Part shown: piece by piece, positions 24,801-49,429 of the stretch
Numbering within the stretch: the stretch's first letter is position 1
Layout: each line of letters starts with the position of its first letter
NCBI GenBank assembly: GCA_041611735.1
Contig: JBFIML010000010.1
Location: forward strand, 13,027 to 77,026
From: Myxococcota bacterium
GTDB taxonomy: Bacteria; Myxococcota_A; UBA9160; PR03
Direction: 5' to 3'
Length of the DNA: 64,000 nucleotides
Notes under the pieces: model-generated
What the model was told of the DNA's origin: nothing
What the model saw: only the letters and a program-made list of their open reading frames with translations
Databases searched by the model: none
Program-made: the position numbers and the translations under genes

Positions 24801-26045
24801 TTGCTGCGACGGCTCGCCGCGAGTCTCCTGTTGGCCTGCTGCGCGGCGGGGGCGACCGAGGTCCAGGCCGAGACCCTCGTCTTCGAGCCCGGCGAGCGCG
24901 CCAGCTGGTCGCTGCGCAACGTGTTCGCCTTCCTGCGTCCCGGCCACTTCTACCGGGCGCGCAGGCTCCACGTGGAGACGACGCCCCCGGGCGCGACCCT
25001 CGACCTCTTCTACGTGCGGTCCGGCTTCCAGAAGCGCTACGAGCAGACCACCGCCCCCGTGGATCTCGTGCTGCCGCGTTGCATCGAGGCGAGCCCCCGA
25101 GATTCGGTCACCATCCGGGCGCTGGCGGACGGCTATCGGCAGACGACGATGCACGTCCGCGTGTGCGCGACGCCCCGCGAGATGGTCGTGCAGCTCGATC
25201 CGCTTCCGAACACGCTGCGGGCCGTGGCCCATACGTACTTCTCCGGACGCGCCTCCCTCGGCTTCCTGTTGGACGAGTCGCCCACCGTGCGCCTCCAGGA
25301 GGCCGCCGGCGGCTTCAGCGTGATCCTGGCGGAGACGGCGGAGGCGGTGGAGCTGGAAGACGCCCTGCGCGCGATCCACAGCCCCCTGGTCGGGCAGGTG
25401 GCGGCGCGTCAGCTCGGCGAGGATCTGCTGGTGGAGGTGGAGTGGGCCAACGGCGCCTCGCCGGACGCCGTGGAGCTGCGCTCGCGCCAGGACCACGACG
25501 CCGTGCGCAACCTGTATCGCTACAGCATCGATCTCGTCCCGGGCGATCGGGGCGCGCTCGCGGTGGAGCGGGCCCGGACGGCCCTGGCGCGCATCGGGCC
25601 CGAGGACGTGACCGGGTGTCCGGCGTTCTTCGATGCCGAGCTGCGGGCCGTCCTGGACCGCGCCGCCCTGGCCCGGGCCCTGCGCCCCCGGGGCGACTTC
25701 ACGGATCCCTTCCTGCGCGCGGCCCTGCGCCGGCTCGGCGAGATCTCGCCGGGCGGCGTGATCCGACTCGCCGACGGCGCCCGCTACCGGCCGAGTGAGC
25801 CCCTCGAGCTGGCCGCCGCCGCCAGCGAGGCGGCGCTGGCCGAGGGGTACCTCGCGCTGCTGCGTCGCTTCGTGGAGGAGCTCGAGCCGGCGCCCTACCG
25901 GGTGGAGACGCTGCGCAGCCTGGTGGCTCCGGAGCTCTCCCCCAGCGCCTTCTCGGCGGCAGTGTCCCGCGCCGAGCAGCGCGAGCTTCGCTGTCGAGGC
26001 AGTGCGCGCTCGGAGCGGCGCGACGCCGGTCGCTGGCTCGGCTAA
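24801..26045 (+). CDS. secreted or lipoprotein hypothetical protein
   Basis: In-frame TTG at 24801 sits 5 nt after GGGGAAGG. Signal peptide LLRRLAASLLLACCAAGATEVQA. No recognisable family. Alternative TTG starts at 24753 and 24780. Confidence 0.6.
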   Translation: MLRRLAASLLLACCAAGATEVQAETLVFEPGERASWSLRNVFAFLRPGHFYRARRLHVETTPPGATLDLFYVRSGFQKRYEQTTAPVDLVLPRCIEASPRDSVTIRALADGYRQTTMHVRVCATPREMVVQLDPLPNTLRAVAHTYFSGRASLGFLLDESPTVRLQEAAGGFSVILAETAEAVELEDALRAIHSPLVGQVAARQLGEDLLVEVEWANGASPDAVELRSRQDHDAVRNLYRYSIDLVPGDRGALAVERARTALARIGPEDVTGCPAFFDAELRAVLDRAALARALRPRGDFTDPFLRAALRRLGEISPGGVIRLADGARYRPSEPLELAAAASEAALAEGYLALLRRFVEELEPAPYRVETLRSLVAPELSPSAFSAAVSRAEQRELRCRGSARSERRDAGRWLG

Positions 26046-31912: not shown

Positions 31913-32224
31913 GACCCCCCGAACGGAACCATGCAGCCGCGGGCCCTCCCGGGCCGGCGCGTCTCCGCATTCGGGAAGTCGACTTCCCTCCCGGGGCGGT
32001 CTCGCAAGGTTCCGCGCACGCCTCCCGCCTGCCGGTGGATCCCCGACGCTTTCGTCAAGAGGCTGGCTCCTGGCCCCCAGGCGTTGCCTCACGAGGCGGC
32101 AGCCAGGCGGCCCAGATGCGCGTCCCGGCGAAGCCAGCCGGCAGGCGCGCTGGCGGGGGGAGGGCGCCGCACCCCGCCGCCCCGCTCGCCGGGCGCCTCC
32201 GGGCGGCTGGGCCGGCCGTCTCGC

Positions 32225-32252
32225 TTGACAGCAAGACGCGTTCTGATAGACT
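32225..32252 (+). promoter_or_regulatory. near-consensus sigma70 promoter with extended -10 (TTGACA-N16-TAGACT, TGa upstream)
   Basis: -35 TTGACA at 32225-32230, TG at 32244-32245, -10 TAGACT at 32247-32252. About 320 nt upstream of the mpa start. Confidence 0.5.
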
Positions 32253-32573
32253 CCACGAGGCTAAAAACGATTGCAATATCGAGGGTTTCGGCGGTTTCTT
32301 CGGCGCGGGTGAGAGCGGCCGGTGGGCCTCGGGAGGCGACCGGCCGGCGGCAGCTTCGGTCTTCGAAGCTCCGGTGGGGACGGTGATGCGGTCCGGCTCG
32401 GGCGTTCCCAACACTCGCGCGCAACGCGCGCGCAACTGCGGCGCGCAGCGGCTCGCCACCGGTTCGCTATCCGGCGATGATGCCTTTCCGGTGCACGGCA
32501 CGTGGATTGCATCGATTCGTCCCCGAGTGGCGCCACGAGCGGGCGTGGCGCCGGAGCACGGGGAGAGGGCGCG

Positions 32574-34397
32574 ATGAGCGAATTCGATTCGGGCTCGGGC
32601 AGGAAGGGCTTCGTTCGGGACGTGATGCGGCGCATCTCGGCCTCGGGGCCCCGCTCAGGCGGAGAGCCGGACCCCGGGCGTGGCCCGGAGGAGACCCTGG
32701 AGGATCTCCTGGACGCGCTGCGGCTGTTCGGCGGGGATTCCAGCGAGTTCCGTCGTCGCTTGGACCGCGTGCTCGGCGAGTACGAGTCGCTGCGCCGCCG
32801 CTACCAGCTCTCCCGCGATCAGCTCGTCGATGCGGAGCGGCAGAACGAGCGGCTGGTCCACACCCTCCAGGAGGCCAAGCAGCAGATCGAGCTCCTGAAG
32901 GAGGAGGTGGAGAAGCTCTGCGCGCCTCCCAACAGCTACGGCGTCTTCACGCGCGCCAACAAGGACGGCACCGTGGAGATCGTCGTGGACGGCAAGCCCA
33001 TGCGGGTGAGCGCCCATCCGAAGGTCGATCCCTTCCAGATCGAGGAAGGTCAGCTCGTCGTGCTGAACGAGGCGTTCAACGTGATCGAGCCGGCCGGCAT
33101 CGTGACCCGGGGAGAGATCGCGTCGGTGGTCGACCTCCTCGGCGACGGGCGGGCCATCGTGCTCGGCCACGCCGACGAGGAGCGCGTCGTCACCCTGGCG
33201 TCCATCCTGCGCCAGGAGAAGCTCAAGGTCGGTGACCACATCATGATCGATCCGCGCACCCAGTACGCCTTCGAGAGGATGCCCAAGTCGGCGGTCGAGG
33301 AGGTCGTGCTCGAGGAGATCCCGGAGATCACCTACGATCGCATCGGCGGCCTGGACGAGCAGATCGAGATCCTTCGCGACGCGATCGAGCTGCCCTACCT
33401 GTATCCCGAGGCGTTCGCGGAGCACCGTCTCTCGCCGCCCAAGGGCATCCTGCTGTACGGCCCCCCGGGCTGCGGCAAGACGCTCATCGCCAAGGCGGTG
33501 GCGAACAGCCTGGCGCGGAGCATCGAGCAGCGCACGGGTCGGCGCACCGCTGCGTACTTCCTCAACGTGAAGGGGCCGGAGCTGCTCAACAAGTACGTGG
33601 GCGAGACCGAGCACAAGATCCGCGAGGTGTTCAAGAAGGCGCGCGAGAAGGCCAGCGAGGACGTGCCCGTCGTCATCTTCTTCGACGAAATGGATTCGCT
33701 CTTCCGCATGCGCGGATCGGGCATCTCCTCGGACATGGAGGCCACGGTGGTGGCTCAGTTCCTGTCGGAGATCGACGGGGTGGAGTCGCTGAACAACGTG
33801 ATCGTGATCGGCGCCAGCAACCGGCAGGACCTGATCGACCCGGCGGTACTGCGCCCCGGACGCCTCGATCTCAAGGTCAAGGTGCACCGGCCCGACTCCC
33901 CGGCGGCGCGCGCCATCTTCGGGAAGTACCTGCTCACCGATCTTCCCTTCCACCCGAACGCGCAGGAGCGCTACGGGAGCGATCCGCAGAAGATGGTGGA
34001 CGGGATGATCGACGACACGATCGAGCACATGTACTCGACGTCGGAAGACAACAAGTTCCTGGAGGTGACGTACGCCAAGGGCGAGCGCGAGATCTTCTAC
34101 TTCAAGGACTTCGCGAGCGGCGCGATGATCGAGAACATCGTGGCGCGCGCCAAGAAGAAGGCCGTGAAGCGCCTGATCGACCACGGGGAACGCGGCGTCA
34201 AGCTCTCCGATCTCCTCGAGGCCGTGCGCGAGGAGTTCAAGGAGAACGAGGACCTTCCGAACACCACGAATCCGGACGACTGGGCGCGCATCTCCGGCCG
34301 CAAGGGCGAGCGGATCATCAACGTCCGGACGTTGATGACGGGGATCAATCGGAACGAGCGCTCGATCGAGAACATCAGCTCGGGTCAGTACCTGTAG
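32574..34397 (+). CDS. mpa: proteasome-associated AAA+ ATPase Mpa/ARC
   Basis: ATG at 32574 sits 4 nt after GGGGAGAGGG. N-terminal coiled coil, OB domains, Walker A GPPGCGKT, Walker B VIFFDEMD. The C-terminus ...ISSGQYL carries the GQYL docking motif. Confidence 0.95.
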   Translation: MSEFDSGSGRKGFVRDVMRRISASGPRSGGEPDPGRGPEETLEDLLDALRLFGGDSSEFRRRLDRVLGEYESLRRRYQLSRDQLVDAERQNERLVHTLQEAKQQIELLKEEVEKLCAPPNSYGVFTRANKDGTVEIVVDGKPMRVSAHPKVDPFQIEEGQLVVLNEAFNVIEPAGIVTRGEIASVVDLLGDGRAIVLGHADEERVVTLASILRQEKLKVGDHIMIDPRTQYAFERMPKSAVEEVVLEEIPEITYDRIGGLDEQIEILRDAIELPYLYPEAFAEHRLSPPKGILLYGPPGCGKTLIAKAVANSLARSIEQRTGRRTAAYFLNVKGPELLNKYVGETEHKIREVFKKAREKASEDVPVVIFFDEMDSLFRMRGSGISSDMEATVVAQFLSEIDGVESLNNVIVIGASNRQDLIDPAVLRPGRLDLKVKVHRPDSPAARAIFGKYLLTDLPFHPNAQERYGSDPQKMVDGMIDDTIEHMYSTSEDNKFLEVTYAKGEREIFYFKDFASGAMIENIVARAKKKAVKRLIDHGERGVKLSDLLEAVREEFKENEDLPNTTNPDDWARISGRKGERIINVRTLMTGINRNERSIENISSGQYL

Positions 34398-34427
34398 CGG
34401 TTCTTCCCGGCTAACCGCGGAGAAGCG

Positions 34428-35912
34428 ATGGCGATCCCCAAGGTGATGGGAACGGAGATCGAATACGGGATCACCGTCAAGAACGACCGCGATTTCGACC
34501 CCATCTCGAGCTGTGTGCTGCTGGTCAACTCCTACCGGGAGGAGACGGCCGGGCAGATCCTGTGGGACTACGACCAGGAGAATCCGCTGGCGGACGCCCG
34601 CGGCTTCCAGGTGGAGGGGGAGAAGTACACCCCCAACCAGCAGGAGAACATCGCGCGCAACAAGACGCTCGTGAATGGGGCGCGCTACTACGTCGACCAC
34701 GCCCATCCCGAGTACTCCTGCCCCGAGGTCACCAACCCCCGCGATCTGGTCGTGCACGAGAAGGCCGGCGAGCGCATCGTGGAGCTCTCGCGGCGCGAGG
34801 CCAGCCGGGTGCTCCCGCCGGGCAGTCAGATGCTCATCTACAAGAACAACAGCGATCGCAAGGGAAACAGCTACGGCTGCCACGAGAACTACTTGATGGA
34901 CCGCCGCACGTCCTTCAAGCAGATCGTGGAGCATCTGATGCCATTCCTGGTGACCCGGCAGTTGTACACGGGAGCCGGAAAGGTGGGCAGCGAGAACCGG
35001 GCGCAGCCCTGCGAGTACCAGCTCTCGCAGCGTGCGGACTTCTTCGAGACCGAGGTGGCGCTCGACACCATGGTGAAGCGCCCCATCATCAATACGCGTG
35101 ACGAACCCCACGCGGACCGCGAGAAGTACCGCCGGCTGCACGTGATCGTGGGCGACTCGAACATGAGTGAGTTCACGATCTACCTGCGCAACGGCGCCAC
35201 CGCGATCGTGCTTTCCATGATCGAGGACGGCGCGATCACCCGGGACCTCTCCCTCCACGACCCCGTGCGCGCGATCAAGGAGGTCTCCCACGACGTCGCC
35301 TGCCGACGCCCCCTCGAACTCGCCAACGGAAAGCGTATGACCGCCGTGCAGATCCAGGCCGAGTACCTGGCCATGGCGCACCGCTACGTGGCCGGGCGCC
35401 CCCAGGAACCCTGGGTCTCCGAGGTCCTGCAGAAGTGGGAGCGGGTGCTCGACGCCCTGGCCCGGGATCCCATGGAGCTCGCCGGCGAGATCGACTGGGT
35501 GATCAAGCACGCGATGATCCGGGGCTTCATGGAGCGCAAGGGGCTCGACTGGGGCTCCTCCCAGGTCCAGATGCTCGACCTCCAGTACCACGACCTGCGT
35601 CCCGACAAGGGGCTGTACTATCTTCTGGAACGCCAGGGGAAGGTCGAGCGCATCGTCGAGGACGACCAGATCCGCCGCGCCATCCACGAGCCGCCCGAGG
35701 ACACGCGGGCGTATTTCCGGGGCTCCTGCCTCAAGCGCTTCGGATCGGAGGTCTTCGGTGTGAACTGGGACTCGATCTCGTTCGGCATCGGAGACGAGCC
35801 GATCAAGCGCGTCCTCATGGTCGAGCCCCTCAAGGGCTCGAAGACGCACGTGGAGGAGCTCCTGGCCCGGTCGCCGACCGCGGCGGATCTCGTCCGGAAC
35901 CTGAGGGCCTGA
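34428..35912 (+). CDS. dop: Pup deamidase/depupylase Dop
   Basis: PafA/Dop fold (MGTEIEYG..., NSYGCHENYL, INTRDEPHAD, RLHVIVGDSNMSE) with an extra roughly 40-aa loop (WDYDQENPLADARGFQVEGEKYTPNQQENIARNKTLVNG) that is absent from the downstream paralogue. It occupies the canonical position between mpa and pup. Confidence 0.9.
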   Translation: MAIPKVMGTEIEYGITVKNDRDFDPISSCVLLVNSYREETAGQILWDYDQENPLADARGFQVEGEKYTPNQQENIARNKTLVNGARYYVDHAHPEYSCPEVTNPRDLVVHEKAGERIVELSRREASRVLPPGSQMLIYKNNSDRKGNSYGCHENYLMDRRTSFKQIVEHLMPFLVTRQLYTGAGKVGSENRAQPCEYQLSQRADFFETEVALDTMVKRPIINTRDEPHADREKYRRLHVIVGDSNMSEFTIYLRNGATAIVLSMIEDGAITRDLSLHDPVRAIKEVSHDVACRRPLELANGKRMTAVQIQAEYLAMAHRYVAGRPQEPWVSEVLQKWERVLDALARDPMELAGEIDWVIKHAMIRGFMERKGLDWGSSQVQMLDLQYHDLRPDKGLYYLLERQGKVERIVEDDQIRRAIHEPPEDTRAYFRGSCLKRFGSEVFGVNWDSISFGIGDEPIKRVLMVEPLKGSKTHVEELLARSPTAADLVRNLRA

Positions 35913-35934
35913 TCCAGGGCCCGGGAGAGTCGCG

Positions 35935-36195
35935 ATGCAACGCCACACCAACCCCCCTGCTCGCCCTACCGCGGGATGGCTTCCGATCTTCGCGGCTGCC
36001 GACTCCCAGCAGAAGCAGAAGCCGAGACGCGGCGGTGGCGAGGGCGAGGCCGAGAGCGAGGGCGGCCAGAAGCTCGCCAAGAAGGGCGAGGAACTCAAGG
36101 AAGAGATGGACGCACTGATCGACGAGATCGACGAGGTCCTCGAGGAGAACGCCGAGGAGTTCGTCAAGAACTACGTCCAGCGCGGCGGCCAGTAG
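35935..36195 (+). CDS. pup: prokaryotic ubiquitin-like protein Pup (86 aa, N-terminally extended)
   Basis: C-terminal half ...KGEELKEEMDALIDEIDEVLEENAEEFVKNYVQRGGQ matches the Pup helix and GGQ terminus. The ATG sits 5 nt after GGGAGAG. Confidence 0.9.
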   Translation: MQRHTNPPARPTAGWLPIFAAADSQQKQKPRRGGGEGEAESEGGQKLAKKGEELKEEMDALIDEIDEVLEENAEEFVKNYVQRGGQ

Positions 36196-36226
36196 CCGGC
36201 TTCCGGAGACCGAAGAGGGGGGTTCG

Positions 36227-37012
36227 GTGCTCTTCCAGGGCAAGTACGGTGGGTCCAGCTTTCGCGAGCTGATCGAAACCGACTTCCCGCAGCTCCTTCC
36301 GGCGCTGCGGGGGGAGCCGGGTCGAGCGCTCCCGAGCGTCCCGCACGGCACCACCGTGCTCGCGCTCAAGTACGGTGACGGAGTGCTGGTCGGCGGCGAC
36401 CGACTCGCCACCGAGGGCTACCGCGTCGCCTCCCGAGACATCCAGAAGGTCTACGCCACGGACGCGCATTCCCTCATCGCGATTTCGGGGGCGGCGGGAC
36501 CCAGCATCGAGATGGCCCGTCTGCTGCGCATCGAGCTCGAGCACTACGAGAAGATCGAGGGGGAGGCCCTCGAGCTCGAGGGCAAGGCCAACAAGCTCTC
36601 CCAGATGGTGCGTGCCAACCTGCCCGCCGCCATGCAGGGTCTCGTGGTCGTTCCCATCTTCGCCGGCTACGACCTGCGCCGGAGCACCGGCCGGCTGTGG
36701 AAGTACGACGTGACCGGAGGCCGCTACGAGGAGGCGGAGTACGATGCCTCCGGGAGTGGTGGACTGTTCGCACGCGACTCGCTCAAGAAGAGCTGGCGGC
36801 CGGGCCTTTCGCGGGAAGAGGCGTTGCGAAACGGCATCCAGGCCCTCGTAGATGCGGCCGACGAGGATCGGGCCACCGGGGGGGTGGACCTGCTGCGGGG
36901 CATCTTCCCCACCGTGAACCTCTGCACCGAGCAGGGCATCGAGGACGTATCCGAAGACGAACTGCGGCGGGTCTACGAGCAGGCCATGGCTCCGCGGCGC
37001 GCTGCGGAGTAG
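36227..37012 (+). CDS. prcB: 20S proteasome beta subunit
   Basis: About 41-aa propeptide, then HG|TTVLALKY (catalytic Thr). GSGG motif. Confidence 0.93.
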   Translation: MLFQGKYGGSSFRELIETDFPQLLPALRGEPGRALPSVPHGTTVLALKYGDGVLVGGDRLATEGYRVASRDIQKVYATDAHSLIAISGAAGPSIEMARLLRIELEHYEKIEGEALELEGKANKLSQMVRANLPAAMQGLVVVPIFAGYDLRRSTGRLWKYDVTGGRYEEAEYDASGSGGLFARDSLKKSWRPGLSREEALRNGIQALVDAADEDRATGGVDLLRGIFPTVNLCTEQGIEDVSEDELRRVYEQAMAPRRAAE

Positions 37013-37018
37013 CCGCCC

Positions 37019-37717
37019 ATGTCGATGCCGTTCTACGTCTCTCCCGAGCAGTGGATGCAGGACAAGGCGGAGTACGCCCGCAAGGGCATCGCCCGCGGCC
37101 GGTCGCTCATCGCCCTGGAGTACCAGGCCGGCATCCTGCTGATCGCCGAGAACCCGTCGAGCTTGTCGAAGATCGGTGAGATCTACGATCGCATCGCCTT
37201 CGCGGGCGTGGGCAAGTTCAGCGAATTCGACCAGCTGCGCAAGATCGGCGTGCGCTACTGCGACGTGAAGGGCTACGCCTACAGCCGGGAGGACGTGCGC
37301 GCCAAGGCGCTGGCCAACGCCTACTCCCAGGCGATCGGTGACGTCTTCACGCGCGAGCTCAAGCCGCTCGAGGTCGAGGTGATCGTGGCGGAGGTGGGCA
37401 ACGACGAGCTGGTGGGTCAGGAACGCAACGCGATCTTCCGCGTGCAGTTCGACGGCAGCATCTCGGACCATGAGGGCCATTGCGTGATCGGGGGCAGCGT
37501 GGAGAACCTCCAGGGCCACCTCCAGGGCCACTACCGCGCTGATCTACCCCTCGGGGAAGCCGTGCGCCTGGGGCGCGACGCGCTGGCTCAGGCAGGCGGA
37601 GGTCACGCGGGGCTCGCCCCCGAGAACCTCGAGGTGTGCGTGCTCGATCGCTCGCGTCCCGGCCGAAAGTTCCGGCGCCTTCCCGCCGAAGAAGTACGAG
37701 GTATGCTAGGCGGCTGA
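37019..37717 (+). CDS. prcA: 20S proteasome alpha subunit
   Basis: MSMPFYVSPEQWMQDKAEYARKGIARGRS..., the typical bacterial PrcA N-terminus, and a proteasome fold lacking the catalytic Thr. Confidence 0.93.
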   Translation: MSMPFYVSPEQWMQDKAEYARKGIARGRSLIALEYQAGILLIAENPSSLSKIGEIYDRIAFAGVGKFSEFDQLRKIGVRYCDVKGYAYSREDVRAKALANAYSQAIGDVFTRELKPLEVEVIVAEVGNDELVGQERNAIFRVQFDGSISDHEGHCVIGGSVENLQGHLQGHYRADLPLGEAVRLGRDALAQAGGGHAGLAPENLEVCVLDRSRPGRKFRRLPAEEVRGMLGG

Positions 37718-37747
37718 GGGCCGGGGAAGCCGGCTGCGCCGGAACGC

Positions 37748-39157
37748 GTGGTGCAAAAACGAATCTACGGTCTGGAGACCGAATACGGGATCATCTTCAC
37801 GCCCGAGGGCCGCAAGACGCTGCCCGTCGAGAAGGCGATCCGTTTCCTTTTCGAGAAGCTGATCACCACCGAGCACTTCCTCAACGTCTTCCTCGAGAAC
37901 GGCGCGCGCTTCTACCAGGACACGGGCTGCCACCCGGAGTACGCCACGCCGGAATGCGCCTCGCCTCGCCAGCTGCTCGTGTACGACAAGGCCGGCGAGC
38001 GCATCCTGGAGGAGCTCCAGGACTACGCCGAGGAGAAGATCCGCGAGGAGCGCATCGCGGGCAAGCTCTCGATCTTCAAGAACAACACCGACTTCGTGGG
38101 CAACAGCTACGGCTGCCACGAGAACTACCTGGTCGACCGGGATGTAGACTTCTACTACCTGGCCGAGCAGCTGATTCCGTTCCTGGTGACCCGCCAGATC
38201 TACACGGGTGCCGGCAAGGTCTTCCAGACCCAGGACGGCGTGCACTACTGCATCAGCCAGCGCGCCCAGCACATCTACCAGAAGATCTCTGGCACCACGA
38301 CGAACGATCGCTCCATCATCAACACGCGCGACGAGCCGCACGCGGACCGCGAGAAGTACCGGCGCCTCCACGTGATCGTGGGCGACTCGAACATGAGCGA
38401 ATACACGAACTTCATCAAGATCGGGACGTGCGCCGTCGTGCTGCAGATGATCGAGGACAACTTCATCAACAAGGACTTCACCCTGCGCAATCCGGTGAAG
38501 GCGATCAAGGACATCTCGTACGACACCACCTGCAAGCGTCGACTGCGCCTGGACAACGGCCGGGAGTATTCGCCGATCGAGATCCAGCGCGAGTACTGCG
38601 AGATGGCCCAGCGCTACCTGGAGCAGTATCCGGTCAGCGACGAGCTACGCGATTCGGTCGTCGAATGGCAGTACGTGCTCGACTGCCTGGACACGGATCC
38701 CAACCGACTGTCGAGACAGATCGATTGGGTGATCAAGCGGCAGATGATCGAATCGTACCTGGGGAGCCGGGGCACGACCTGGAACGATCCTCGCGTCTTC
38801 ATGCTCGATCTCCAGTTTCACGACATCCGCGTGAGCCGCGGGCTCTTCTATCTGCTGGAGCGCAAGGAGGCGGCGGACCGGCTGCTGAACGACGACGAGG
38901 TCATGAAGGCCAAGACCGAGCCGCCGCCCGACACGCGGGCCAAGATGCGGGGCGAGTTCATCAAGCTCGCGCGCCAGAACGCGATCCAGTACGACCTGGA
39001 CTGGTCGAACATCCGCCTCGGCAACCTGCTCAACGTGCGCGTGATCTGCAACAACCCCTTCGAGACCGATACGGAGAAGGTCGCGGAGCTGGTGCGGACG
39101 ATCCAGAAGACGAACCTGCGCAAGACGAGCCTCTCGAAGCTGGTGATCCAGTCGTGA
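37748..39157 (+). CDS. pafA: Pup--protein ligase PafA
   Basis: YGLETEYG, NSYGCHENYL, INTRDEPHAD, RLHVIVGDSNMSE, without the Dop loop. GTG start. Confidence 0.92.
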   Translation: MVQKRIYGLETEYGIIFTPEGRKTLPVEKAIRFLFEKLITTEHFLNVFLENGARFYQDTGCHPEYATPECASPRQLLVYDKAGERILEELQDYAEEKIREERIAGKLSIFKNNTDFVGNSYGCHENYLVDRDVDFYYLAEQLIPFLVTRQIYTGAGKVFQTQDGVHYCISQRAQHIYQKISGTTTNDRSIINTRDEPHADREKYRRLHVIVGDSNMSEYTNFIKIGTCAVVLQMIEDNFINKDFTLRNPVKAIKDISYDTTCKRRLRLDNGREYSPIEIQREYCEMAQRYLEQYPVSDELRDSVVEWQYVLDCLDTDPNRLSRQIDWVIKRQMIESYLGSRGTTWNDPRVFMLDLQFHDIRVSRGLFYLLERKEAADRLLNDDEVMKAKTEPPPDTRAKMRGEFIKLARQNAIQYDLDWSNIRLGNLLNVRVICNNPFETDTEKVAELVRTIQKTNLRKTSLSKLVIQS

Positions 39158-39534
39158 GCCCGGCGGAGGATCGCCCGCGGCTCGTGGCCGTCCCCGGGAG
39201 CCCGGAGCCGGCCGCGCCGGAGGCCCCGGCCCCCGGGGTGGGGGGCGCTGGCCGCGCTCCCTGGGTGCTGAGCGCGCTGCTGGCGCTGGCGCTCCTGATC
39301 TCCTTCGTGGCCCTGGTGCGCCAGGTCCAGCAGACCCGCGGGCTCGAGGCCCGGGTGGAGGACCTGAGCGCGGCCCTGGGCGGCGCCGAGGCCGAGATCG
39401 AGGCGCGTCGCCTCCACCTGGATGCGGTGCGCGGGGAGGTCACCCGGGTGGGCGAGGCCCTCGGTGCCCTGGCGGAGCTGGTGACCCGGGACCCGGCGCC
39501 GGCCCCCCCCACGCGGCCGCCCGCAGTCGACTGA
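39154..39534 (+). CDS. membrane-anchored coiled-coil protein, unknown family, coupled to pafA
   Basis: The GTG overlaps the pafA stop (GTGA). One TM helix WVLSALLALALLISFVALV, followed by an Ala/Glu/Leu/Arg heptad-like segment. Third codon positions are almost all G/C. Confidence 0.55.
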   Translation: MSPAEDRPRLVAVPGSPEPAAPEAPAPGVGGAGRAPWVLSALLALALLISFVALVRQVQQTRGLEARVEDLSAALGGAEAEIEARRLHLDAVRGEVTRVGEALGALAELVTRDPAPAPPTRPPAVD

Positions 39535-39652: not shown

Positions 39653-40687
39653 ATGTTCAGCTCGCTCGCGGGCCTCTTCTCCAACGACCTCGCCATCGAC
39701 CTCGGCACCGCGAATACGCTGGTGTACGCCCGGGGCAAGGGGGTCGTCTGCTCGGAGCCGAGCGTCGTGGCGGTCGCCAAGGACCCGAACGGCCGCGGGG
39801 AGCGGGTCCTGGCGGTCGGCAACGAGGCGAAGGCCATGCTCGGGCGCACGCCCCACGGCATCCGCGCCATCCGCCCCATCAAGGACGGGGTCATCGCCGA
39901 TTTCGAAGTCACCGAGGCGATGCTCCGCTACTTCATCCACCGGGCCCACAACCGCTCCAAGCTCGTACGCCCGCGCATCGTGATCTGCGTGCCGCCCTGC
40001 ATCACGAGCGTGGAGAAGCGTGCGGTGCGCGAGTCGGCGCTCTCGGCCGGGGCGCGCGAGGTCTTCCTGATCGAAGAGCCCATGGCGGCCGCCATCGGGG
40101 CCGGACTCGACGTGACTGCCCCCAGCGGGAACATGGTCTGCGACATCGGCGGTGGCACCACCGACGTGGCCGTCACCTCCCTGGCCGGCATCGTGGCCTC
40201 GCGCTCCGTCCGCTGCGGCGGCGACAAGATGGACGAGGCGATCATCCAGTACGTGAAGCGGAAGTACAACGTCCTGATCGGTGAGCGCACCGCCGAGGAC
40301 GTCAAGATGACGATCGCCACGGCCTCGCCGCACGGCAAGACCCAGACCATGGAGATCAAGGGGCGCGATCTGGTGGCCGGCATTCCGAAGGTGGTGGTGG
40401 CCACCAGCGAGGAGATCTACGAGGCGCTGATCGAGCCGATCAGCACGATCGTAGAGACCGTGCATCTCACCCTCGAGCGGACGCCGCCCGAGCTCGCCGC
40501 GGACATCGTGGATCGCGGCATCATGCTGGTGGGCGGGGGCTCCCTGCTGCGGGACCTGGACCGGGTGCTACGCGAGGAGACCAAGCTCCCCATCCTGCGC
40601 AGCGACGATCCGTTCACGGCGGTGGTCCACGGGGCCGGCCGGGCCCTGGAGGACCTGGCCCTGCTGCGCCAGGTGGCCCTGGTCTGA
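39653..40687 (+). CDS. mreB: rod shape-determining protein MreB
   Basis: LAIDLGTANTLVY..., DIGGGTTDVAV, full-length actin-like ATPase. Confidence 0.95.
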   Translation: MFSSLAGLFSNDLAIDLGTANTLVYARGKGVVCSEPSVVAVAKDPNGRGERVLAVGNEAKAMLGRTPHGIRAIRPIKDGVIADFEVTEAMLRYFIHRAHNRSKLVRPRIVICVPPCITSVEKRAVRESALSAGAREVFLIEEPMAAAIGAGLDVTAPSGNMVCDIGGGTTDVAVTSLAGIVASRSVRCGGDKMDEAIIQYVKRKYNVLIGERTAEDVKMTIATASPHGKTQTMEIKGRDLVAGIPKVVVATSEEIYEALIEPISTIVETVHLTLERTPPELAADIVDRGIMLVGGGSLLRDLDRVLREETKLPILRSDDPFTAVVHGAGRALEDLALLRQVALV

Positions 40688-40767
40688 AGCCCGGTGCTTC
40701 GGTCGGGCGCCTTGCCAGCGGCGTGTCTCGACTCCGATGATCCGCACCGAATCTCTGGGACGGGAAA

Positions 40768-41376
40768 CTAGGGTCCCATCAGGCCGGCCAGGGCGAGCTG
40801 CATGACCAGCGCCACGTCGCCCTCCAGCTGCACCCGTCCAGCCAGAAAGGCCGCCTGGGGCTCGAGCCGTCCCTCCCGCAGCTCCCGGAAGGTCTCGGCG
40901 TCCACGCGGATGCGGGCGTCCGGCTCCGCCGGTGGGGCGACGCCCCCCAGGTGCACCAGGACGCCGAAGCCCGCCTCGCCGGTCACGTCGACGCGCAGCG
41001 TGCCGCGTACCGAGGCGATCCGCTCGACCCGGGACGCGGTGAGCGGAGCCGGGCCGGCCAGACCGGGCAGGGTCGAGATCAGCGCCAGCGGCTCCTGCTC
41101 CATCTCGCCCAGCAGGCGCTCGAAGTCGGCCAGCTCCTGCACGAACGTCACGAACGGCGGTCGTGCCGGCGCCTCGCCCCCGGACATGTGGCCCGCCTCG
41201 ATGTTCAGGTAGAAGGTCCCGCCTCCTTCGCCCGCCAGGTCCACGCGAACGGTCGCGGCCAGTTCGCCCAGGGCCGCCCGGCCCGCGTCGCCGCCGGCCT
41301 CCTCGCCGAGCAGGCGGTTGAAGCGCGCCGGCAGGTGCTCGATCAGGAACCGGCGCGGGTCGATCCGGCCACTCAC
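40768..41376 (-). CDS. SCP2 sterol-binding domain-containing protein
   Basis: The GTG at 41376 overlaps the mltG stop (GTGA). C-terminal ...LEPQAAFLAGRVQLEGDVALVMQLA is typical of the SCP2 fold. Confidence 0.75.
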   Translation of the reverse strand: MSGRIDPRRFLIEHLPARFNRLLGEEAGGDAGRAALGELAATVRVDLAGEGGGTFYLNIEAGHMSGGEAPARPPFVTFVQELADFERLLGEMEQEPLALISTLPGLAGPAPLTASRVERIASVRGTLRVDVTGEAGFGVLVHLGGVAPPAEPDARIRVDAETFRELREGRLEPQAAFLAGRVQLEGDVALVMQLALAGLMGP

Positions 41377-47956: not shown

Positions 47957-49429
47957 CTAGAGCGGCTCCCAGCCGCTGGCGGCCGGAGCCGGGGAGACCG
48001 AGGTGGCTGCCCCGGCGGCCGTCACCTGGACGCGCGCCAGAGGGGTGGTCAGCGGGAAGGCCGGCACGGCGAGAGTGCGGGGGGCGCCCTCCGCGTCCCG
48101 GGTCGTGAGGCGGGTCTCCGCTCGTGGGTTGATCCAGAGCGTGAACGCGGCCCGCGGGTCGAGGCCGGCCTCCACCAGGCGCTGCTCCAGCTCCGCCGCG
48201 TACTCCCCCATCGCGCTGCGCAGCACGAAGGCCGGCACGCGTCGGCTCTCCCGGCAGGTCCCGACGGCGCGCGCGCGGTCCAAGCGCTTCCACGAGCCCG
48301 CTGCCAGGTCCAGCCGCACGGCGCGGCAGCCGCCTTCCAGCCAGCGCAGGTCCAGGGCGGCCGATCCGTCGGCCGTGATGCGCTCCTGGGGGCGGCCGAA
48401 GCGGCCTCCCAGAGAGCAGGCCTCGCCCGGCAACGGCAGGGAGCGGGAGGTGTGGTCCGGCTCCACCACGCGCAGCCACTCCCGGACCCCTCCGGTCTCC
48501 GCATCCGCGCGTCGCAGCAGGACGAACGTGCGGTCTGCCCAGCGCAAGGCCAGCTGGTCGTTGCGGTCGGCGGCGTCCGGGGCGGGCCGTTCCGGCGAGG
48601 CGGTGGGATCGAGCGCCGCGGGCAGCGCCTCGTCCCCGGGACGCCAGAGCACCTCGAGCGGGCTCCCAGGCACGATCTCCCGGGGACCCGGTGCCGTGGC
48701 GAGGACCAGCGCGCCGGTGGCCGTCCAGGCGAGACGGCGGCCCCGGAGTTCGCTGGTCCGGGCCACCAGCACCGGCCGGGACCGCTCCGGGCCGAGGCTT
48801 GCGAGCCGCACCGCCACGCCTGCCGCCCCTCGCTCGGTCCAGGCCGCGTGACGCCCGTCGGGAGCGAGACTCAGGTCGAGGACGGGCCCCTGGCAGTTCG
48901 CCCCGAAGCCGAGGGTGGCCCGGGCGGTCAGGACGCCGTCGGGAAGGCCCTCTCCGTGGCCAGGCGCTCCGGCGCTGGCGGTGGGGGTGCCCGCCCCCGG
49001 CTCCTCCGGCCGGCAAGAGCCCCTACGGTCCTCGGCGTCGAAGGCCGGCACCAGGGCGATGCGCAGCGGGCGTCGGGGCTCCAAGACCCGCGGCGGGGAG
49101 CAGCGGTAGCCCTCCGCGGAGACCGCCACCACCCGGGTCTCCGTCACGAGCCAGGGCCAGAGCGTGAGACTCGGGCGCAGCCGGGTCTCGACCCGGAAGC
49201 GGCCCGCCGCGTCGCTGTCGGCCTTCCCCTCCCCGAGGATCCGACGCTCGGGCAGCACCTGGTCGTAGCGTCCCTCATGGCGGACGTGGACCTGGGCCCG
49301 CGCCACGGGGCGGCCCGTCCGGGCATCCACCACCACCCCGGAGATCGGGGGGACGACGCGTGCCGGCAGGGGGGCGCAGGCGAGCAGCAGCCCCCCGGCG
49401 AGGCTCCGGAGAACGAGGGTCTTCGTCAT
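47957..49429 (-). CDS. large lipoprotein, unknown function (N-terminal CarboxypepD_reg-like segment)
   Basis: C-terminal 490 aa of the 985-aa track ORF. MTKTLVLRSLAGGLLLAC|A lipobox. ISGVVVDARTGRPVARAQVHV resembles a carboxypeptidase-regulatory-like beta-sandwich. The rest is unassignable. Confidence 0.65.
   Translation of the reverse strand: MTKTLVLRSLAGGLLLACAPLPARVVPPISGVVVDARTGRPVARAQVHVRHEGRYDQVLPERRILGEGKADSDAAGRFRVETRLRPSLTLWPWLVTETRVVAVSAEGYRCSPPRVLEPRRPLRIALVPAFDAEDRRGSCRPEEPGAGTPTASAGAPGHGEGLPDGVLTARATLGFGANCQGPVLDLSLAPDGRHAAWTERGAAGVAVRLASLGPERSRPVLVARTSELRGRRLAWTATGALVLATAPGPREIVPGSPLEVLWRPGDEALPAALDPTASPERPAPDAADRNDQLALRWADRTFVLLRRADAETGGVREWLRVVEPDHTSRSLPLPGEACSLGGRFGRPQERITADGSAALDLRWLEGGCRAVRLDLAAGSWKRLDRARAVGTCRESRRVPAFVLRSAMGEYAAELEQRLVEAGLDPRAAFTLWINPRAETRLTTRDAEGAPRTLAVPAFPLTTPLARVQVTAAGAATSVSPAPAASGWEPL

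What the first reader, a model, noticed from the sequence alone, without database searches (positions are those of the whole stretch)
32574..39534. Complete Pup-proteasome (pupylation) locus in a genome that builds an outer membrane
Six collinear + strand genes are separated by only 5-30 nt.
- mpa: AAA+ ATPase with Walker A GPPGCGKT and a C-terminus ending SSGQYL, the proteasome-docking motif.
- dop: PafA/Dop fold plus the roughly 40-aa Dop loop.
- pup: ends YVQRGGQ, so a deamidase is required before ligation.
- prcB: propeptide followed by HG|TTV.
- prcA.
- pafA.

The same window encodes bamD, lolA, lgt, mltG and pilT. The host is therefore diderm, not an actinobacterium, the group in which essentially all mechanistic work on pupylation has been done.

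Sporadic non-actinobacterial Pup-proteasome loci are known from comparative genomics (for example Nitrospirae), so the system itself is not new. Its substrates, regulation and physiological role in diderm bacteria are essentially unexplored.

This copy deviates from the actinobacterial layout in three ways: it has no pafB/pafC WYL regulators, it has an extra membrane ORF after pafA, and it has a long leader upstream of mpa.
Basis: partly seen in the sequence, partly recalled or inferred. Interest (0 to 1): 0.7.

Follow-up and report, generated by a model that had tools for sequence, protein, structure and literature searches.

The report
Sigma-54-driven Pup-proteasome operon in Myxococcota
An uncultured marine myxobacterium, which has an outer membrane, carries a complete and well-conserved copy of the actinobacterial "tag-and-destroy" Pup-proteasome system; the machinery is ordinary, but it appears to be driven by a sigma-54 promoter that the sampled actinobacterial loci lack.

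Summary

**Host.** It is an uncultured marine or sediment Myxococcota. The window also encodes BamD, LolA, Lgt, MltG and PilT.

**Not an isolated transfer.** The block ftsK-lolA-[locus]-mreB recurs in about 70 species-level Myxococcota MAGs. PafA (median 88% identity) is better conserved there than MreB (82%). In a Dop+PafA tree the two enzymes are true orthologues of actinobacterial Dop and PafA (100% bootstrap). The Myxococcota form their own clade, outside the sampled Actinomycetes.

**Main correction.** The 661-nt "long leader" is non-coding DNA. Its only conserved element is a sigma-54 -24/-12 promoter (GGCACGTGGATTGCA, 32497-32511), 77 nt before the mpa ATG. That motif is present upstream of mpa in 64 of 73 Myxococcota loci, 0 of 76 actinobacterial loci and 0 of 79 Poribacteria loci. 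The real leader would be about 50 nt.

**Other points.**
- pafBC is absent from the window and from the relatives' flanks.
- The membrane ORF is a clade-restricted family with no annotation.
- Pup ends GGQ here but GGE in two thirds of relatives.
- This Pup is an 86-aa long form.

**Verdict.** A new member of a known kind with lineage-specific regulation. Interest is moderate.

The parts
31913..32496 (+). Non-coding region between lolA and the promoter. No function is assigned; it could hold enhancer sites.
   Evidence: There is no third-position GC periodicity in any frame and no Rfam match at E<=1. The lolA-mpa gap is 500-1500 nt in almost all of 58 relatives (one is 196 nt), but its sequence is not alignable. 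No shared k-mer exceeds the shuffled controls.
32497..32511 (+). Sigma-54 (RpoN) type -24/-12 promoter element, GGCAC-N5-TTGCA. The inferred transcription start is near 32522.
   Evidence: It is the only match to GGCAC-N5-TTGC in the 64-kb window. Exactly one match per gap occurs in 52 of 58 relatives, 67-159 nt before the mpa ATG, most often 77 nt. The motif is present upstream of mpa in 64 of 73 Myxococcota loci, 0 of 76 Actinomycetota loci and 0 of 79 Poribacteria loci. Two positions that the search pattern left free also follow the sigma-54 consensus: R after GGCAC in 55 of 56, and W after TTGC in 56 of 56. The flanks carry about 0 bits.
32522..32573 (+). Inferred 5' leader of about 52 nt, with a Shine-Dalgarno-like GGAG at 32562-32565.
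   Evidence: The start is inferred from the usual -12 spacing. GAGGAGAGGGC before the ATG is conserved in the alignment of relatives.
32574..34397 (+). mpa (ARC): the proteasomal AAA+ unfoldase that recognises Pup.
   Evidence: TIGR03689 scores 723 bits. Two OB domains and an AAA domain are present. The best PDB hit is M. tuberculosis Mpa (7PX9, 632 bits). Features present: Walker A GPPGCGKT, Walker B FFDEMD, pore loop KYVG and C-terminal GQYL.
34428..35912 (+). dop: Pup deamidase and depupylase.
   Evidence: TIGR03688 scores 581 bits, above its cut-off. It scores 550 bits against Acidothermus Dop (4B0R) over residues 5-492, including the Dop loop. It falls in the Dop clade with 100% bootstrap.
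35935..36195 (+). pup: the prokaryotic ubiquitin-like protein, here an 86-aa long form ending GGQ.
   Evidence: PF05639 scores 72 bits and TIGR03687 scores 58 bits. The C-terminal half, LIDEIDEVLEENAEEFVKNYVQRGGQ, is nearly identical to actinobacterial Pup. No start codon would give the canonical length of about 68 aa. GGGAGAG precedes the ATG at 35935.
36227..37012 (+). prcB: 20S proteasome beta subunit with a 41-aa propeptide.
   Evidence: TIGR03690 scores 293 bits. It scores 234 bits against the Rhodococcus beta subunit (1Q5R). The processing site is HG|TTV, and Thr1, Asp17 and Lys33 are present.
37019..37717 (+). prcA: 20S proteasome alpha subunit.
   Evidence: TIGR03691 scores 290 bits. 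It scores 217 bits against the Rhodococcus alpha subunit (1Q5Q), aligned from residue 1.
37748..39157 (+). pafA: the Pup ligase.
   Evidence: PF03136 scores 502 bits. TIGR03686 scores 542 bits (cut-off 551), against 409 for the Dop model. It aligns from residue 3 with Corynebacterium PafA (4B0T) and has no Dop loop. It falls in the PafA clade with 100% bootstrap. Identity among relatives is 83-94%.
39154..39534 (+). Small single-pass membrane protein with a coiled coil (126 aa). Function unknown; its start overlaps the pafA stop.
   Evidence: The overlap reads GTGA and GC3 is 0.94. A similar ORF with a transmembrane segment follows pafA in 41 of 58 relatives. The aligned family shares an N-terminal xRPxLxAV motif, a transmembrane helix and the pattern L...L...VR. 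A profile search found 18 database hits, all hypothetical and without a Pfam domain. An independent gene caller calls the same ORF.

Best explanation
This is a functional, canonical Pup-proteasome system, inherited vertically within a large uncultured clade of Myxococcota.

**Inferred mechanism (from homology to the mycobacterial system)**
1. Dop deamidates the C-terminal Gln of Pup to Glu.
2. PafA uses ATP to ligate that glutamate to lysines of target proteins.
3. The Mpa hexamer binds Pup through its N-terminal coiled coils. It threads the tagged protein through its pore and docks on the 20S core by its GQYL tail.
4. PrcA and PrcB form the 20S particle, whose Thr1 sites degrade the substrate.
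5. Dop can also remove Pup.

**What differs from actinobacteria is the wiring**
- The operon appears to be transcribed from a conserved sigma-54 promoter 77 nt before mpa. Expression would then depend on an unidentified, unlinked enhancer-binding activator and therefore on a signal.
- pafBC is not attached.
- A clade-specific small membrane protein gene follows pafA.

**Shown:** gene identities, catalytic motifs, synteny, conservation, orthology, and the presence and conservation of the promoter motif.

**Inferred:** all enzymatic activities, use of the promoter by sigma-54, the transcription start, and co-transcription of the genes.
For: **Gene identities**
- Profile and PDB matches identify all six proteins, with catalytic and docking motifs intact.

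**Host and inheritance**
- Of the 80 best Dop relatives, 63 are labelled Myxococcota, Myxococcales or Deltaproteobacteria. Another 14 carry other or looser labels but share the same synteny.
- The order ftsK-lolA-mpa-dop-pup-prcB-prcA-pafA-(TM ORF)-mreB...mltG/ruvX is conserved in them.

**Purifying selection**
- Median identity to the window is PafA 88%, Mpa 77% and Dop 77%. The neighbours score MreB 82%, FtsK 60% and LolA 47%.

**Phylogeny**
- NJ tree on 445 columns with 200 bootstraps: Dop/PafA split 100%; Myxococcota monophyletic 100% in both halves; sampled Actinomycetota monophyletic 100%.
- Myxococcota Dop groups with Nitrospinota and Poribacteria at 73%.

**Sigma-54 promoter**
- (figures under parts).
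- An unbiased scan of 185,579 species genomes for the motif followed 45-75 nt later by ATGAGYGARTTYGA gave 113 hits. At least 74 of them are followed by an Mpa ORF starting at that ATG. In the part of the hit list that was shown, most titles are Myxococcota or Deltaproteobacteria MAGs.

**Expression**
- Sediment metatranscriptome contigs at 80% likeness or more cover mpa through pafA. This is weak evidence that such loci are expressed.
Against: - No biochemical or expression data exist for this organism.
- PafA falls 9 bits below the NCBIfam equivalog cut-off.
- The window's own promoter match is not significant taken alone: 0.57 matches are expected per 64 kb. The case rests on conservation across species.
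- Neither rpoN nor any enhancer-binding protein gene was found in the window or in about 2 Mb of related flanks. No shared upstream activator site was detected.
- A sigma-70-like site at 32225-32252 could be a second promoter.
- Actinobacterial sampling in the tree was narrow. It comprised Actinomycetes close to Acidothermus plus one MAG labelled Solirubrobacteraceae. Origin from an unsampled actinobacterial class is therefore not excluded.
- The tree is distance-based, not maximum likelihood.
Confidence: 0.85

Rival explanations
1. The locus is actinobacterial DNA: either a mis-assembled or contaminating piece of contig, or a very recent horizontal acquisition from an actinobacterium.
For: All best PDB hits are actinobacterial. 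Pup's C-terminal half is almost identical to actinobacterial Pup. The gene order is the actinobacterial one.
Against: The same contig carries BamD, LolA, Lgt and PilT. GC content (65-68%) and codon bias are close to the 72% of the flanks. The flanking genes ftsK-lolA and mreB are the same in about 70 related genomes. Identity to actinobacterial Dop and PafA is only about 50%, against 54% to Poribacteria and 63% to a Nitrospinota Dop. The clade lies outside the sampled Actinomycetota with 100% support for each group.
Confidence: 0.03
2. The conserved GGCAC-N5-TTGCA element is not a sigma-54 promoter. It would instead be the operator of an unrelated DNA-binding protein, and transcription would start from a sigma-70 promoter such as 32225-32252, giving a leader of about 310 nt.
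For: A sigma-70-like site scoring 10 of 12, with an extended -10 TG, lies at 32225-32252. A block around it is 71% conserved with the nearest relative, L001. No rpoN gene, activator gene or activator site was found.
Against: The sigma-70-like site is not conserved beyond L001. The element matches the sigma-54 consensus at positions that were not imposed by the search, R after GGCAC and W after TTGC, and the GG-N10-GC spacing is exact in every locus. The divergent subclade uses TGGTAC-N5-TTGC, a classic sigma-54 variant. Its distance to the ATG (mode 77 nt) suits a promoter.
Confidence: 0.15
3. The locus is retained but works mainly as a non-degradative tagging or regulatory system, or on membrane proteins through the adjacent membrane protein, rather than in bulk proteasomal degradation.
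For: Iyer et al. 2008 (PMC2588565) proposed membrane-protein pupylation for Plesiocystis and Rhodopirellula. A conserved membrane ORF overlaps the pafA stop codon. PafA is far more conserved than PrcA or PrcB: 88% against 67% and 65%.
Against: Mpa keeps its GQYL docking tail and pore loop. PrcB keeps Thr1, Asp17 and Lys33. All six genes are retained together in almost every relative. The membrane ORF stays with mreB, not pafA, in two of the three loci where insertions separate them.
Confidence: 0.1

Closest known systems
Actinobacterial Pup-proteasome system (Mycobacterium tuberculosis mpa-dop-pup-prcB-prcA ... pafA-pafB-pafC)
   Same: It has the same six proteins in the same order, with the same motifs: GQYL tail, Dop loop, Pup GGQ/GGE, and a beta propeptide with Thr1. 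Every protein passes or nearly passes the NCBIfam equivalog model built on this system. The polymorphism between GGQ and GGE occurs in both groups.
   Different: The host is diderm. Protein identity is about 50%. A sigma-54-type promoter is present, whereas none was found in 76 actinobacterial loci. No pafBC lies nearby, whereas it was found in 18 actinobacterial loci. pafA directly follows prcA. A small membrane ORF follows pafA. Pup is 86 aa here, against 69-75 aa in the actinobacteria.
Pup-proteasome loci of other Gram-negative phyla: Nitrospirae such as Leptospirillum (PMC3511204), Poribacteria and Nitrospinota as found here, and the 'UBact' systems
   Same: They are complete mpa-dop-pup-prcBA-pafA loci in diderm bacteria. 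Poribacteria have the same order in 79 or more species genomes. In the tree they tend to group with the Myxococcota rather than with the Actinomycetes (73% for Dop, 53% for PafA).
   Different: The Poribacteria loci lack the sigma-54 motif (0 of 79) and have a short Pup of 65-71 aa. The Leptospirillum system was proposed to come from Acidimicrobiales by transfer. No such nesting was seen here, but Acidimicrobiia were not sampled.
Plesiocystis pacifica (Myxococcota) Pup with a membrane-inserted Pup ligase (Iyer, Burroughs and Aravind 2008, PMC2588565)
   Same: It is in the same phylum and has Pup together with a PafA-family ligase. A membrane protein gene is linked to the ligase.
   Different: Plesiocystis has no linked proteasome genes, and its ligase carries four inserted transmembrane segments. 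Here the ligase is a soluble, canonical PafA, and Mpa and the 20S genes are present.
Sigma-54 dependent promoters with bacterial enhancer-binding proteins (for example Myxococcus xanthus developmental genes; established knowledge)
   Same: It has the -24 GG and -12 GC elements with TGGCAC-N5-TTGCW spacing, and it sits 50-80 nt ahead of the start codon.
   Different: No activator gene, activator binding site or rpoN gene has been identified for this clade. No paper in the held library mentions pupylation or the bacterial proteasome together with Myxococcota. A link between sigma-54 and the proteasome was not searched for.

Membership tests
Pup-proteasome system (PPS) | Pup: a small disordered protein with a C-terminal GG[QE] and the Mpa-binding helix | tested here: met
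   PF05639 scores 72 bits (cut-off 27) and TIGR03687 scores 58 bits (cut-off 41). It ends YVQRGGQ.
Pup-proteasome system (PPS) | Dop: a member of the carboxylate-amine ligase fold carrying the Dop loop | tested here: met
   TIGR03688 scores 581 bits (cut-off 492). The loop aligns with 4B0R. It falls in the Dop clade at 100% bootstrap.
Pup-proteasome system (PPS) | PafA: the paralogous Pup ligase, without the Dop loop | tested here: met
   The Pfam Pup_ligase model scores 502 bits. TIGR03686 scores 542 bits, which is 9 bits under its 551 cut-off, so the equivalog threshold is narrowly missed. The Dop model scores only 409. The N-terminus aligns with 4B0T and lacks the loop. It falls in the PafA clade at 100% bootstrap.
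Pup-proteasome system (PPS) | Mpa/ARC: an AAA+ ATPase with a double OB domain and a C-terminal GQYL docking motif | tested here: met
   TIGR03689 scores 723 bits (cut-off 505). PF16450 and PF17758 both match. The sequence ends GQYL, aligned with Mtb Mpa 7PX9.
Pup-proteasome system (PPS) | Bacterial 20S alpha and beta subunits, the beta subunit with a propeptide and Thr1/Asp17/Lys33 | tested here: met
   TIGR03691 scores 290 bits (cut-off 139) and TIGR03690 scores 293 bits (cut-off 192). The catalytic residues were read from the sequence.
Pup-proteasome system (PPS) | Demonstrated deamidation, pupylation and Pup-dependent degradation | not testable with these tools
   This needs biochemistry. 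The only related observation is weak coverage by metatranscriptome contigs.
Sigma-54 dependent promoter | GG at -24 and GC at -12, exactly 10 nt apart, within TGGCAC-N5-TTGCW | tested here: met
   The element is GGCACGTGGATTGCA at 32497-32511. The logo built from 56 loci follows the consensus at positions the search left free.
Sigma-54 dependent promoter | Conserved position upstream of the orthologous gene across species | tested here: met
   It is present in 64 of 73 Myxococcota loci and in 0 of 155 loci from other phyla. At least 74 genomes were recovered by an unbiased pattern scan.
Sigma-54 dependent promoter | The genome encodes RpoN and at least one enhancer-binding activator, and an upstream activator site is present | tested here: inconclusive
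   None was found in the window or in the held flanks, and no shared upstream k-mer was found. Whole genomes of the clade could not be searched.
Sigma-54 dependent promoter | Transcription start about 12 nt downstream of the GC element, dependent on RpoN | not testable with these tools
   The metatranscriptome contigs do not map to the non-conserved leader.
Actinobacterial paf operon (pafA-pafB-pafC) | The WYL-domain regulators PafB and PafC are encoded downstream of pafA | tested here: not met
   tblastn with PafB/C-like ORFs taken downstream of pafA in actinobacterial loci (identified by position and a WYL-like motif, not confirmed by profile) hit 18 actinobacterial loci. It hit none of the Myxococcota or Poribacteria loci, and not the window. 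No WYL family appeared in the Pfam scans of the window ORFs that were scanned, about 46 of 65.

The most novel reading that the evidence does not exclude
In this uncultured Myxococcota clade the Pup-proteasome would be a signal-gated module. It would be switched on through sigma-54 and a dedicated enhancer-binding activator, for example during starvation or a developmental transition. It would also have acquired lineage-specific parts: an N-terminally extended Pup, and a membrane-anchored coiled-coil partner translationally coupled to pafA. Those parts would direct tagging towards envelope-associated or MreB-associated targets. That biology has no actinobacterial counterpart.
Probability: 0.12. 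Interest if true: 0.7.

Novelty: new member of a known kind. Interest (0 to 1): 0.45.

Why it matters
Nearly all mechanistic work on pupylation comes from actinobacteria.

This locus shows that a textbook-complete system has been kept under strong selection in a large, environmentally widespread diderm lineage. It sits in the housekeeping core of the chromosome.

The system appears to have been re-plugged into sigma-54 control, a regulatory logic for which no trace was found in 76 actinobacterial loci.

That gives a concrete and testable handle on when a Gram-negative bacterium deploys a proteasome: one promoter and one unknown activator. It also offers a set of closely related natural variants for comparative biochemistry, namely GGQ versus GGE Pup and short versus long Pup.

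The machinery itself is not new.

Tried and rejected
1. **A gene or RNA hidden in the 661-nt gap.** There is no codon-position GC signal on either strand. tblastx and blastn find conservation only near the mpa start. Rfam finds nothing at E<=1. Rejected.
2. **A shared activator-binding motif upstream of the promoter.** Counts of 7- to 9-mers do not exceed shuffled controls. Nothing found.
3. **A linked activator or rpoN gene.** Searches for GAFTGA and the RpoN box in six-frame translations of all held DNA found nothing in the Myxococcota loci.
4. **Both ligase-fold genes being the same paralogue, or a lineage-specific duplication.** This was prompted by the 47% identity between Dop and PafA and by near-equal PDB scores for PafA (344 bits against PafA, 330 against Dop). 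The 100% Dop/PafA split in the tree rejects it.
5. **Actinobacterial contamination or recent transfer.** Rejected.
6. **The all-representatives search with Dop.** It found 6776 relatives. However, clustering at 50% identity probably merges the Myxococcota and actinobacterial Dop sequences, and the library carries no taxonomy, so it could not resolve the origin.
7. **A genome scan seeded with a Poribacteria Dop.** It returned only Poribacteria. It served as a control but added no diversity.
8. **Metatranscriptome contigs for mapping the transcription start.** They do not map to the non-conserved leader.
9. **The out-of-frame ATG at 35976 ('MASD...') as a frameshifted canonical Pup start.** The spacing does not fit the relatives. 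Treated as coincidence.
10. **Terminator-like hairpins at 38826-38845.** They lie inside pafA and there are fewer than chance predicts.

Full report
**Observation.** The ORF map and profile scans confirm six collinear + strand genes.

| Gene | Coordinates | Best model | Bits (cut-off) |
|---|---|---|---|
| mpa | 32574-34397 | TIGR03689 | 723 (505) |
| dop | 34428-35912 | TIGR03688 | 581 (492) |
| pup | 35935-36195 | PF05639 / TIGR03687 | 72 / 58 |
| prcB | 36227-37012 | TIGR03690 | 293 (192) |
| prcA | 37019-37717 | TIGR03691 | 290 (139) |
| pafA | 37748-39157 | TIGR03686 | 542 (551) |

- For dop, the PafA model scores 429. For pafA, the Dop model scores 409.
- Intergenic gaps are 30, 22, 31, 6 and 30 nt.
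  - Walker A GPPGCGKT;
  - an Mpa C-terminus of SSGQYL;
  - the Dop-loop region, aligned with Acidothermus Dop 4B0R;
  - a Pup ending YVQRGGQ;
  - a PrcB propeptide before HG|TTV.
- Counted from Thr1, PrcB also has Asp17 and Lys33.
- The best solved-structure matches are all actinobacterial: Mtb Mpa 632 bits, Acidothermus Dop 550, Rhodococcus beta 234 and alpha 217, Corynebacterium PafA 344.
- The mpa start at ATG 32574 is supported because tblastn alignments begin at residue 1 in most relatives.

**Host.**
- The window has about 72% GC. It is a stretch of housekeeping genes: RadC, a PilZ protein, SSB, PlsC, FtsK, LolA, the locus itself, MreB, an SCP2 protein, MltG/YceG, RuvX, PgpA, CinA, RecA, PilT, AlaS, IspG, BamD, Lgt and NrdJ.
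- BamD (TIGR03302, 188 bits), LolA, Lgt and PilT confirm a diderm cell plan.
- A genome-collection scan with Dop found more than 536 relatives. Of the best 80, 63 are MAGs labelled Myxococcota, Myxococcales or Deltaproteobacteria, at 67-89% identity.
- Eleven further MAGs labelled Spirochaetales or Spirochaetaceae share the same synteny. One Nitrospinota locus (63%) and two Poribacteria loci (54-55%) complete the list.
- Public runs holding 86-93% of the locus's 31-mers are marine metagenomes.
The interpretation therefore stands.

**Inheritance.**
- In about 70 related species-level genomes the order ftsK-lolA-mpa-dop-pup-prcB-prcA-pafA-(small ORF)-mreB...mltG/ruvX is the same as in the window.
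- Median identity to the window:

| Protein | Median identity |
|---|---|
| PafA | 88% (range 83-94) |
| MreB | 82% |
| Mpa | 77% |
| Dop | 77% |
| Pup | 70% |
| PrcA | 67% |
| PrcB | 65% |
| FtsK | 60% |
| LolA | 47% |

- The pupylation enzymes therefore evolve more slowly than most of their housekeeping neighbours. That argues for function and against a decaying relic.

**Orthology and origin.** PafA scores almost equally against PDB PafA and PDB Dop, and it is 47% identical to the window's own Dop. I therefore built a joint Dop+PafA tree with 64 sequences, 445 columns, neighbour joining and 200 bootstraps.
- The Dop/PafA split has 100% support, so both genes are orthologues of their actinobacterial namesakes.
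- Myxococcota are monophyletic (100%) in both halves, and so are the sampled Actinomycetota (100%).
- Myxococcota Dop groups with Nitrospinota and Poribacteria at 73%. Myxococcota PafA groups with Poribacteria at 53%.
- Pairwise, the window's Dop is about 50% identical to actinobacterial Dop, 54% to Poribacteria and 63% to the Nitrospinota copy.
- A recent transfer from the sampled Actinomycetes is excluded.
- An older transfer from an unsampled class, as proposed for Leptospirillum from Acidimicrobiales (PMC3511204), is not excluded.

**The "long leader".**
- The lolA-mpa gap (31913-32573, 661 nt) shows no codon-position GC signal and no Rfam match.
- In 58 relatives the gap is nearly always long, 500-1500 nt, but it cannot be aligned except near the mpa start.
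- Aligning the last 190 nt exposed one conserved block besides the ribosome-binding site: GGCAC-N5-TTGCA. This is the sigma-54 -24/-12 consensus.
- Window coordinates are 32497-32511, 77 nt before the ATG. It is the only match in the 64-kb window.
- Exactly one match per gap occurs in 52 of 58 loci, 67-159 nt before the ATG and most often 77 nt.
- Four loci of the most divergent subclade carry TGGTA[CT]-N5-TTGC instead.
- Counting all loci in which Mpa is recognisable, the motif lies within 400 nt upstream of mpa in:
  - 64 of 73 Myxococcota loci;
  - 0 of 76 Actinomycetota loci;
  - 0 of 79 Poribacteria loci.
- Of 74 motif hits on both strands in 1.25 Mb of Myxococcota DNA, 64 are at this one place.
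- In a logo from 56 loci, two positions not imposed by the search follow the consensus: R after GGCAC in 55 of 56, and W after TTGC in 56 of 56. The flanks carry about 0 bits.
- A scan of all 185,579 species genomes for the motif followed 45-75 nt later by ATGAGYGARTTYGA returned 113 hits. At least 74 are followed by an Mpa ORF starting at that ATG. In the part of the hit list that was shown, most titles are Myxococcota or Deltaproteobacteria MAGs.
- I conclude, with confidence of about 0.75-0.8, that mpa is transcribed from a sigma-54 promoter. The start would be near 32522 and the leader about 52 nt long.
- What the upstream 580 nt does is unknown:
  - no shared activator-site k-mer was found;
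  - a sigma-70-like site at 32225-32252 is conserved only with the nearest relative.
- From established knowledge, sigma-54 promoters are silent without an ATP-dependent activator. That would imply signal-gated expression. Also from established knowledge, Myxococcus xanthus has an essential rpoN and many activators. Whether this clade has them was not tested.

**pafBC.** PafB/C-like ORFs taken downstream of pafA in actinobacterial loci hit 18 actinobacterial loci. They hit none of the Myxococcota loci, none of the Poribacteria loci, and not the window. These query ORFs were identified by position and a WYL-like motif, not confirmed by profile.

**The trailing ORF.**
- The ORF at 39154-39534 (126 aa) has GC3 of 0.94 and starts in a GTGA overlap with the pafA stop.
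- An independent gene caller calls the same ORF.
- An ORF of about 105-240 aa (mostly 105-190) with a strongly hydrophobic segment starts within about 300 nt downstream of pafA, usually within 60 nt, in 41 of 58 relatives.
- Twenty-nine of these align into a family with four shared features:
  - an N-terminal xRPxLxAV motif;
  - a proline-rich linker;
  - one transmembrane helix;
  - a coiled coil with an invariant Leu and Arg.
- A profile search of 5.8 billion proteins found only 18 hits, all hypothetical and without a Pfam domain.
- Where insertions separate pafA from mreB, the ORF stays beside mreB in L062 and L069 and beside pafA in L026. Its functional partner is therefore undecided.

**Pup variants.**
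- The C-terminus is GGQ in the window. Among Myxococcota relatives it is GGE in 49 of 75, including the nearest relative, L001.
- Actinomycetota show 44 GGQ and 29 GGE, and Poribacteria show 60 and 19. The need for deamidation is therefore specific to each genome.
- Pup length is uniform in Actinomycetota (69-75 aa) and in Poribacteria (65-71 aa). It is bimodal in the Myxococcota.
- Forty-two Myxococcota loci can start at the canonical position (66-72 aa). Thirty-three, including the window, have no start codon there and must use an upstream ATG (74-99 aa; 86 aa here, preceded by GGGAGAG).
- A conserved P-[IFV]-[FYW]-x-A-A-[DE]-S junction precedes the canonical start. The role of the extension is unknown.

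**Expression.**
- Contigs from four sediment and environmental metatranscriptomes map at 80% likeness or more along mpa through pafA.
- This suggests that such loci are transcribed in nature. It is weak evidence, because conserved AAA segments attract unrelated reads and contig depth is not a measure of expression.

**Literature.**
- Iyer et al. 2008 (PMC2588565) noted sporadic Pup systems in deltaproteobacteria. In Plesiocystis, however, these have no proteasome linkage and the ligase is membrane-inserted.
- Reviews describe bacterial proteasomes outside the actinobacteria as rare, citing Nitrospirae (PMC3511204).
- No paper in the held library combines pupylation or the bacterial proteasome with Myxococcota.

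**Verdict.** The finding is real and correctly interpreted. It is a new member of a known kind rather than a new system. The added value lies in four things:
- its breadth and vertical inheritance within Myxococcota;
- the conserved sigma-54 promoter, which replaces the supposed long leader;
- the clade-specific membrane ORF;
- the long form of Pup.

Noticed in passing
window 35935-36003 (N-terminal 23 codons of pup): This Pup is a long form of 86 aa. There is no start codon at the canonical position, and a conserved P-[IFV]-[FYW]-x-AA[DE]S junction precedes it. About 33 of 75 Myxococcota relatives share this form. All Actinomycetota (69-75 aa) and Poribacteria (65-71 aa) Pups are short.
   Followed up: partly
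window 36187-36195; loci L001-L079: The Pup C-terminus switches between GGQ and GGE within the clade: 26 GGQ against 49 GGE. The nearest relative, L001, has GGE. Dependence on deamidation is therefore evolutionarily labile, as it is in actinobacteria.
   Followed up: yes
window 32225-32252: A sigma-70-like promoter, TTGACA-16-TAGACT with an extended -10 TG, scores 10 of 12. It lies in the most AT-rich part of the gap. It is conserved only with the nearest relative, L001. It could be a second promoter or a chance match.
   Followed up: partly
loci L062, L069, L026 (between pafA and mreB): Where extra genes are inserted between pafA and mreB, the small membrane ORF stays next to mreB in L062 and L069 and next to pafA in L026. 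It may therefore belong functionally with mreB rather than with pupylation.
   Followed up: partly
window 37748-39157 and relatives: PafA (median 88% identity, range 83-94%) is more conserved across the clade than MreB (82%), and far more than PrcA or PrcB (67% and 65%). In the tree it sits on a long stem with very short internal branches.
   Followed up: partly
loci L081-L159: Poribacteria carry a complete mpa-dop-pup-prcB-prcA-pafA locus in at least 79 species-level genomes, many of them complete chromosomes. They have no sigma-54 motif upstream of mpa.
   Followed up: partly
loci L003, L014, L025, L029, L036, L051, L054-L056, L070, L077: Eleven third-party-assembled MAGs labelled 'uncultured Spirochaetales' or 'Spirochaetaceae' carry the same ftsK-lolA-locus-mreB block at 72-81% Dop identity. 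Their taxonomic labels look wrong.
   Followed up: no
window 32574-32600 and relatives: The extreme N-terminus of Mpa (MSEFDSGSG) and its DNA (ATGAGCGAGTTCGATTC) are unusually conserved across the clade. They have no counterpart in Mtb Mpa.
   Followed up: no
window 39653-41376: mreB is not followed by mreC and mreD. The next gene is an SCP2-domain protein on the opposite strand, followed by mltG and ruvX.
   Followed up: no
window 24831-26045 (+) and 47957-49429 (-): Two sizeable ORFs with coding-like codon bias (404 aa and 490 aa) have no Pfam or NCBIfam family above threshold.
   Followed up: no
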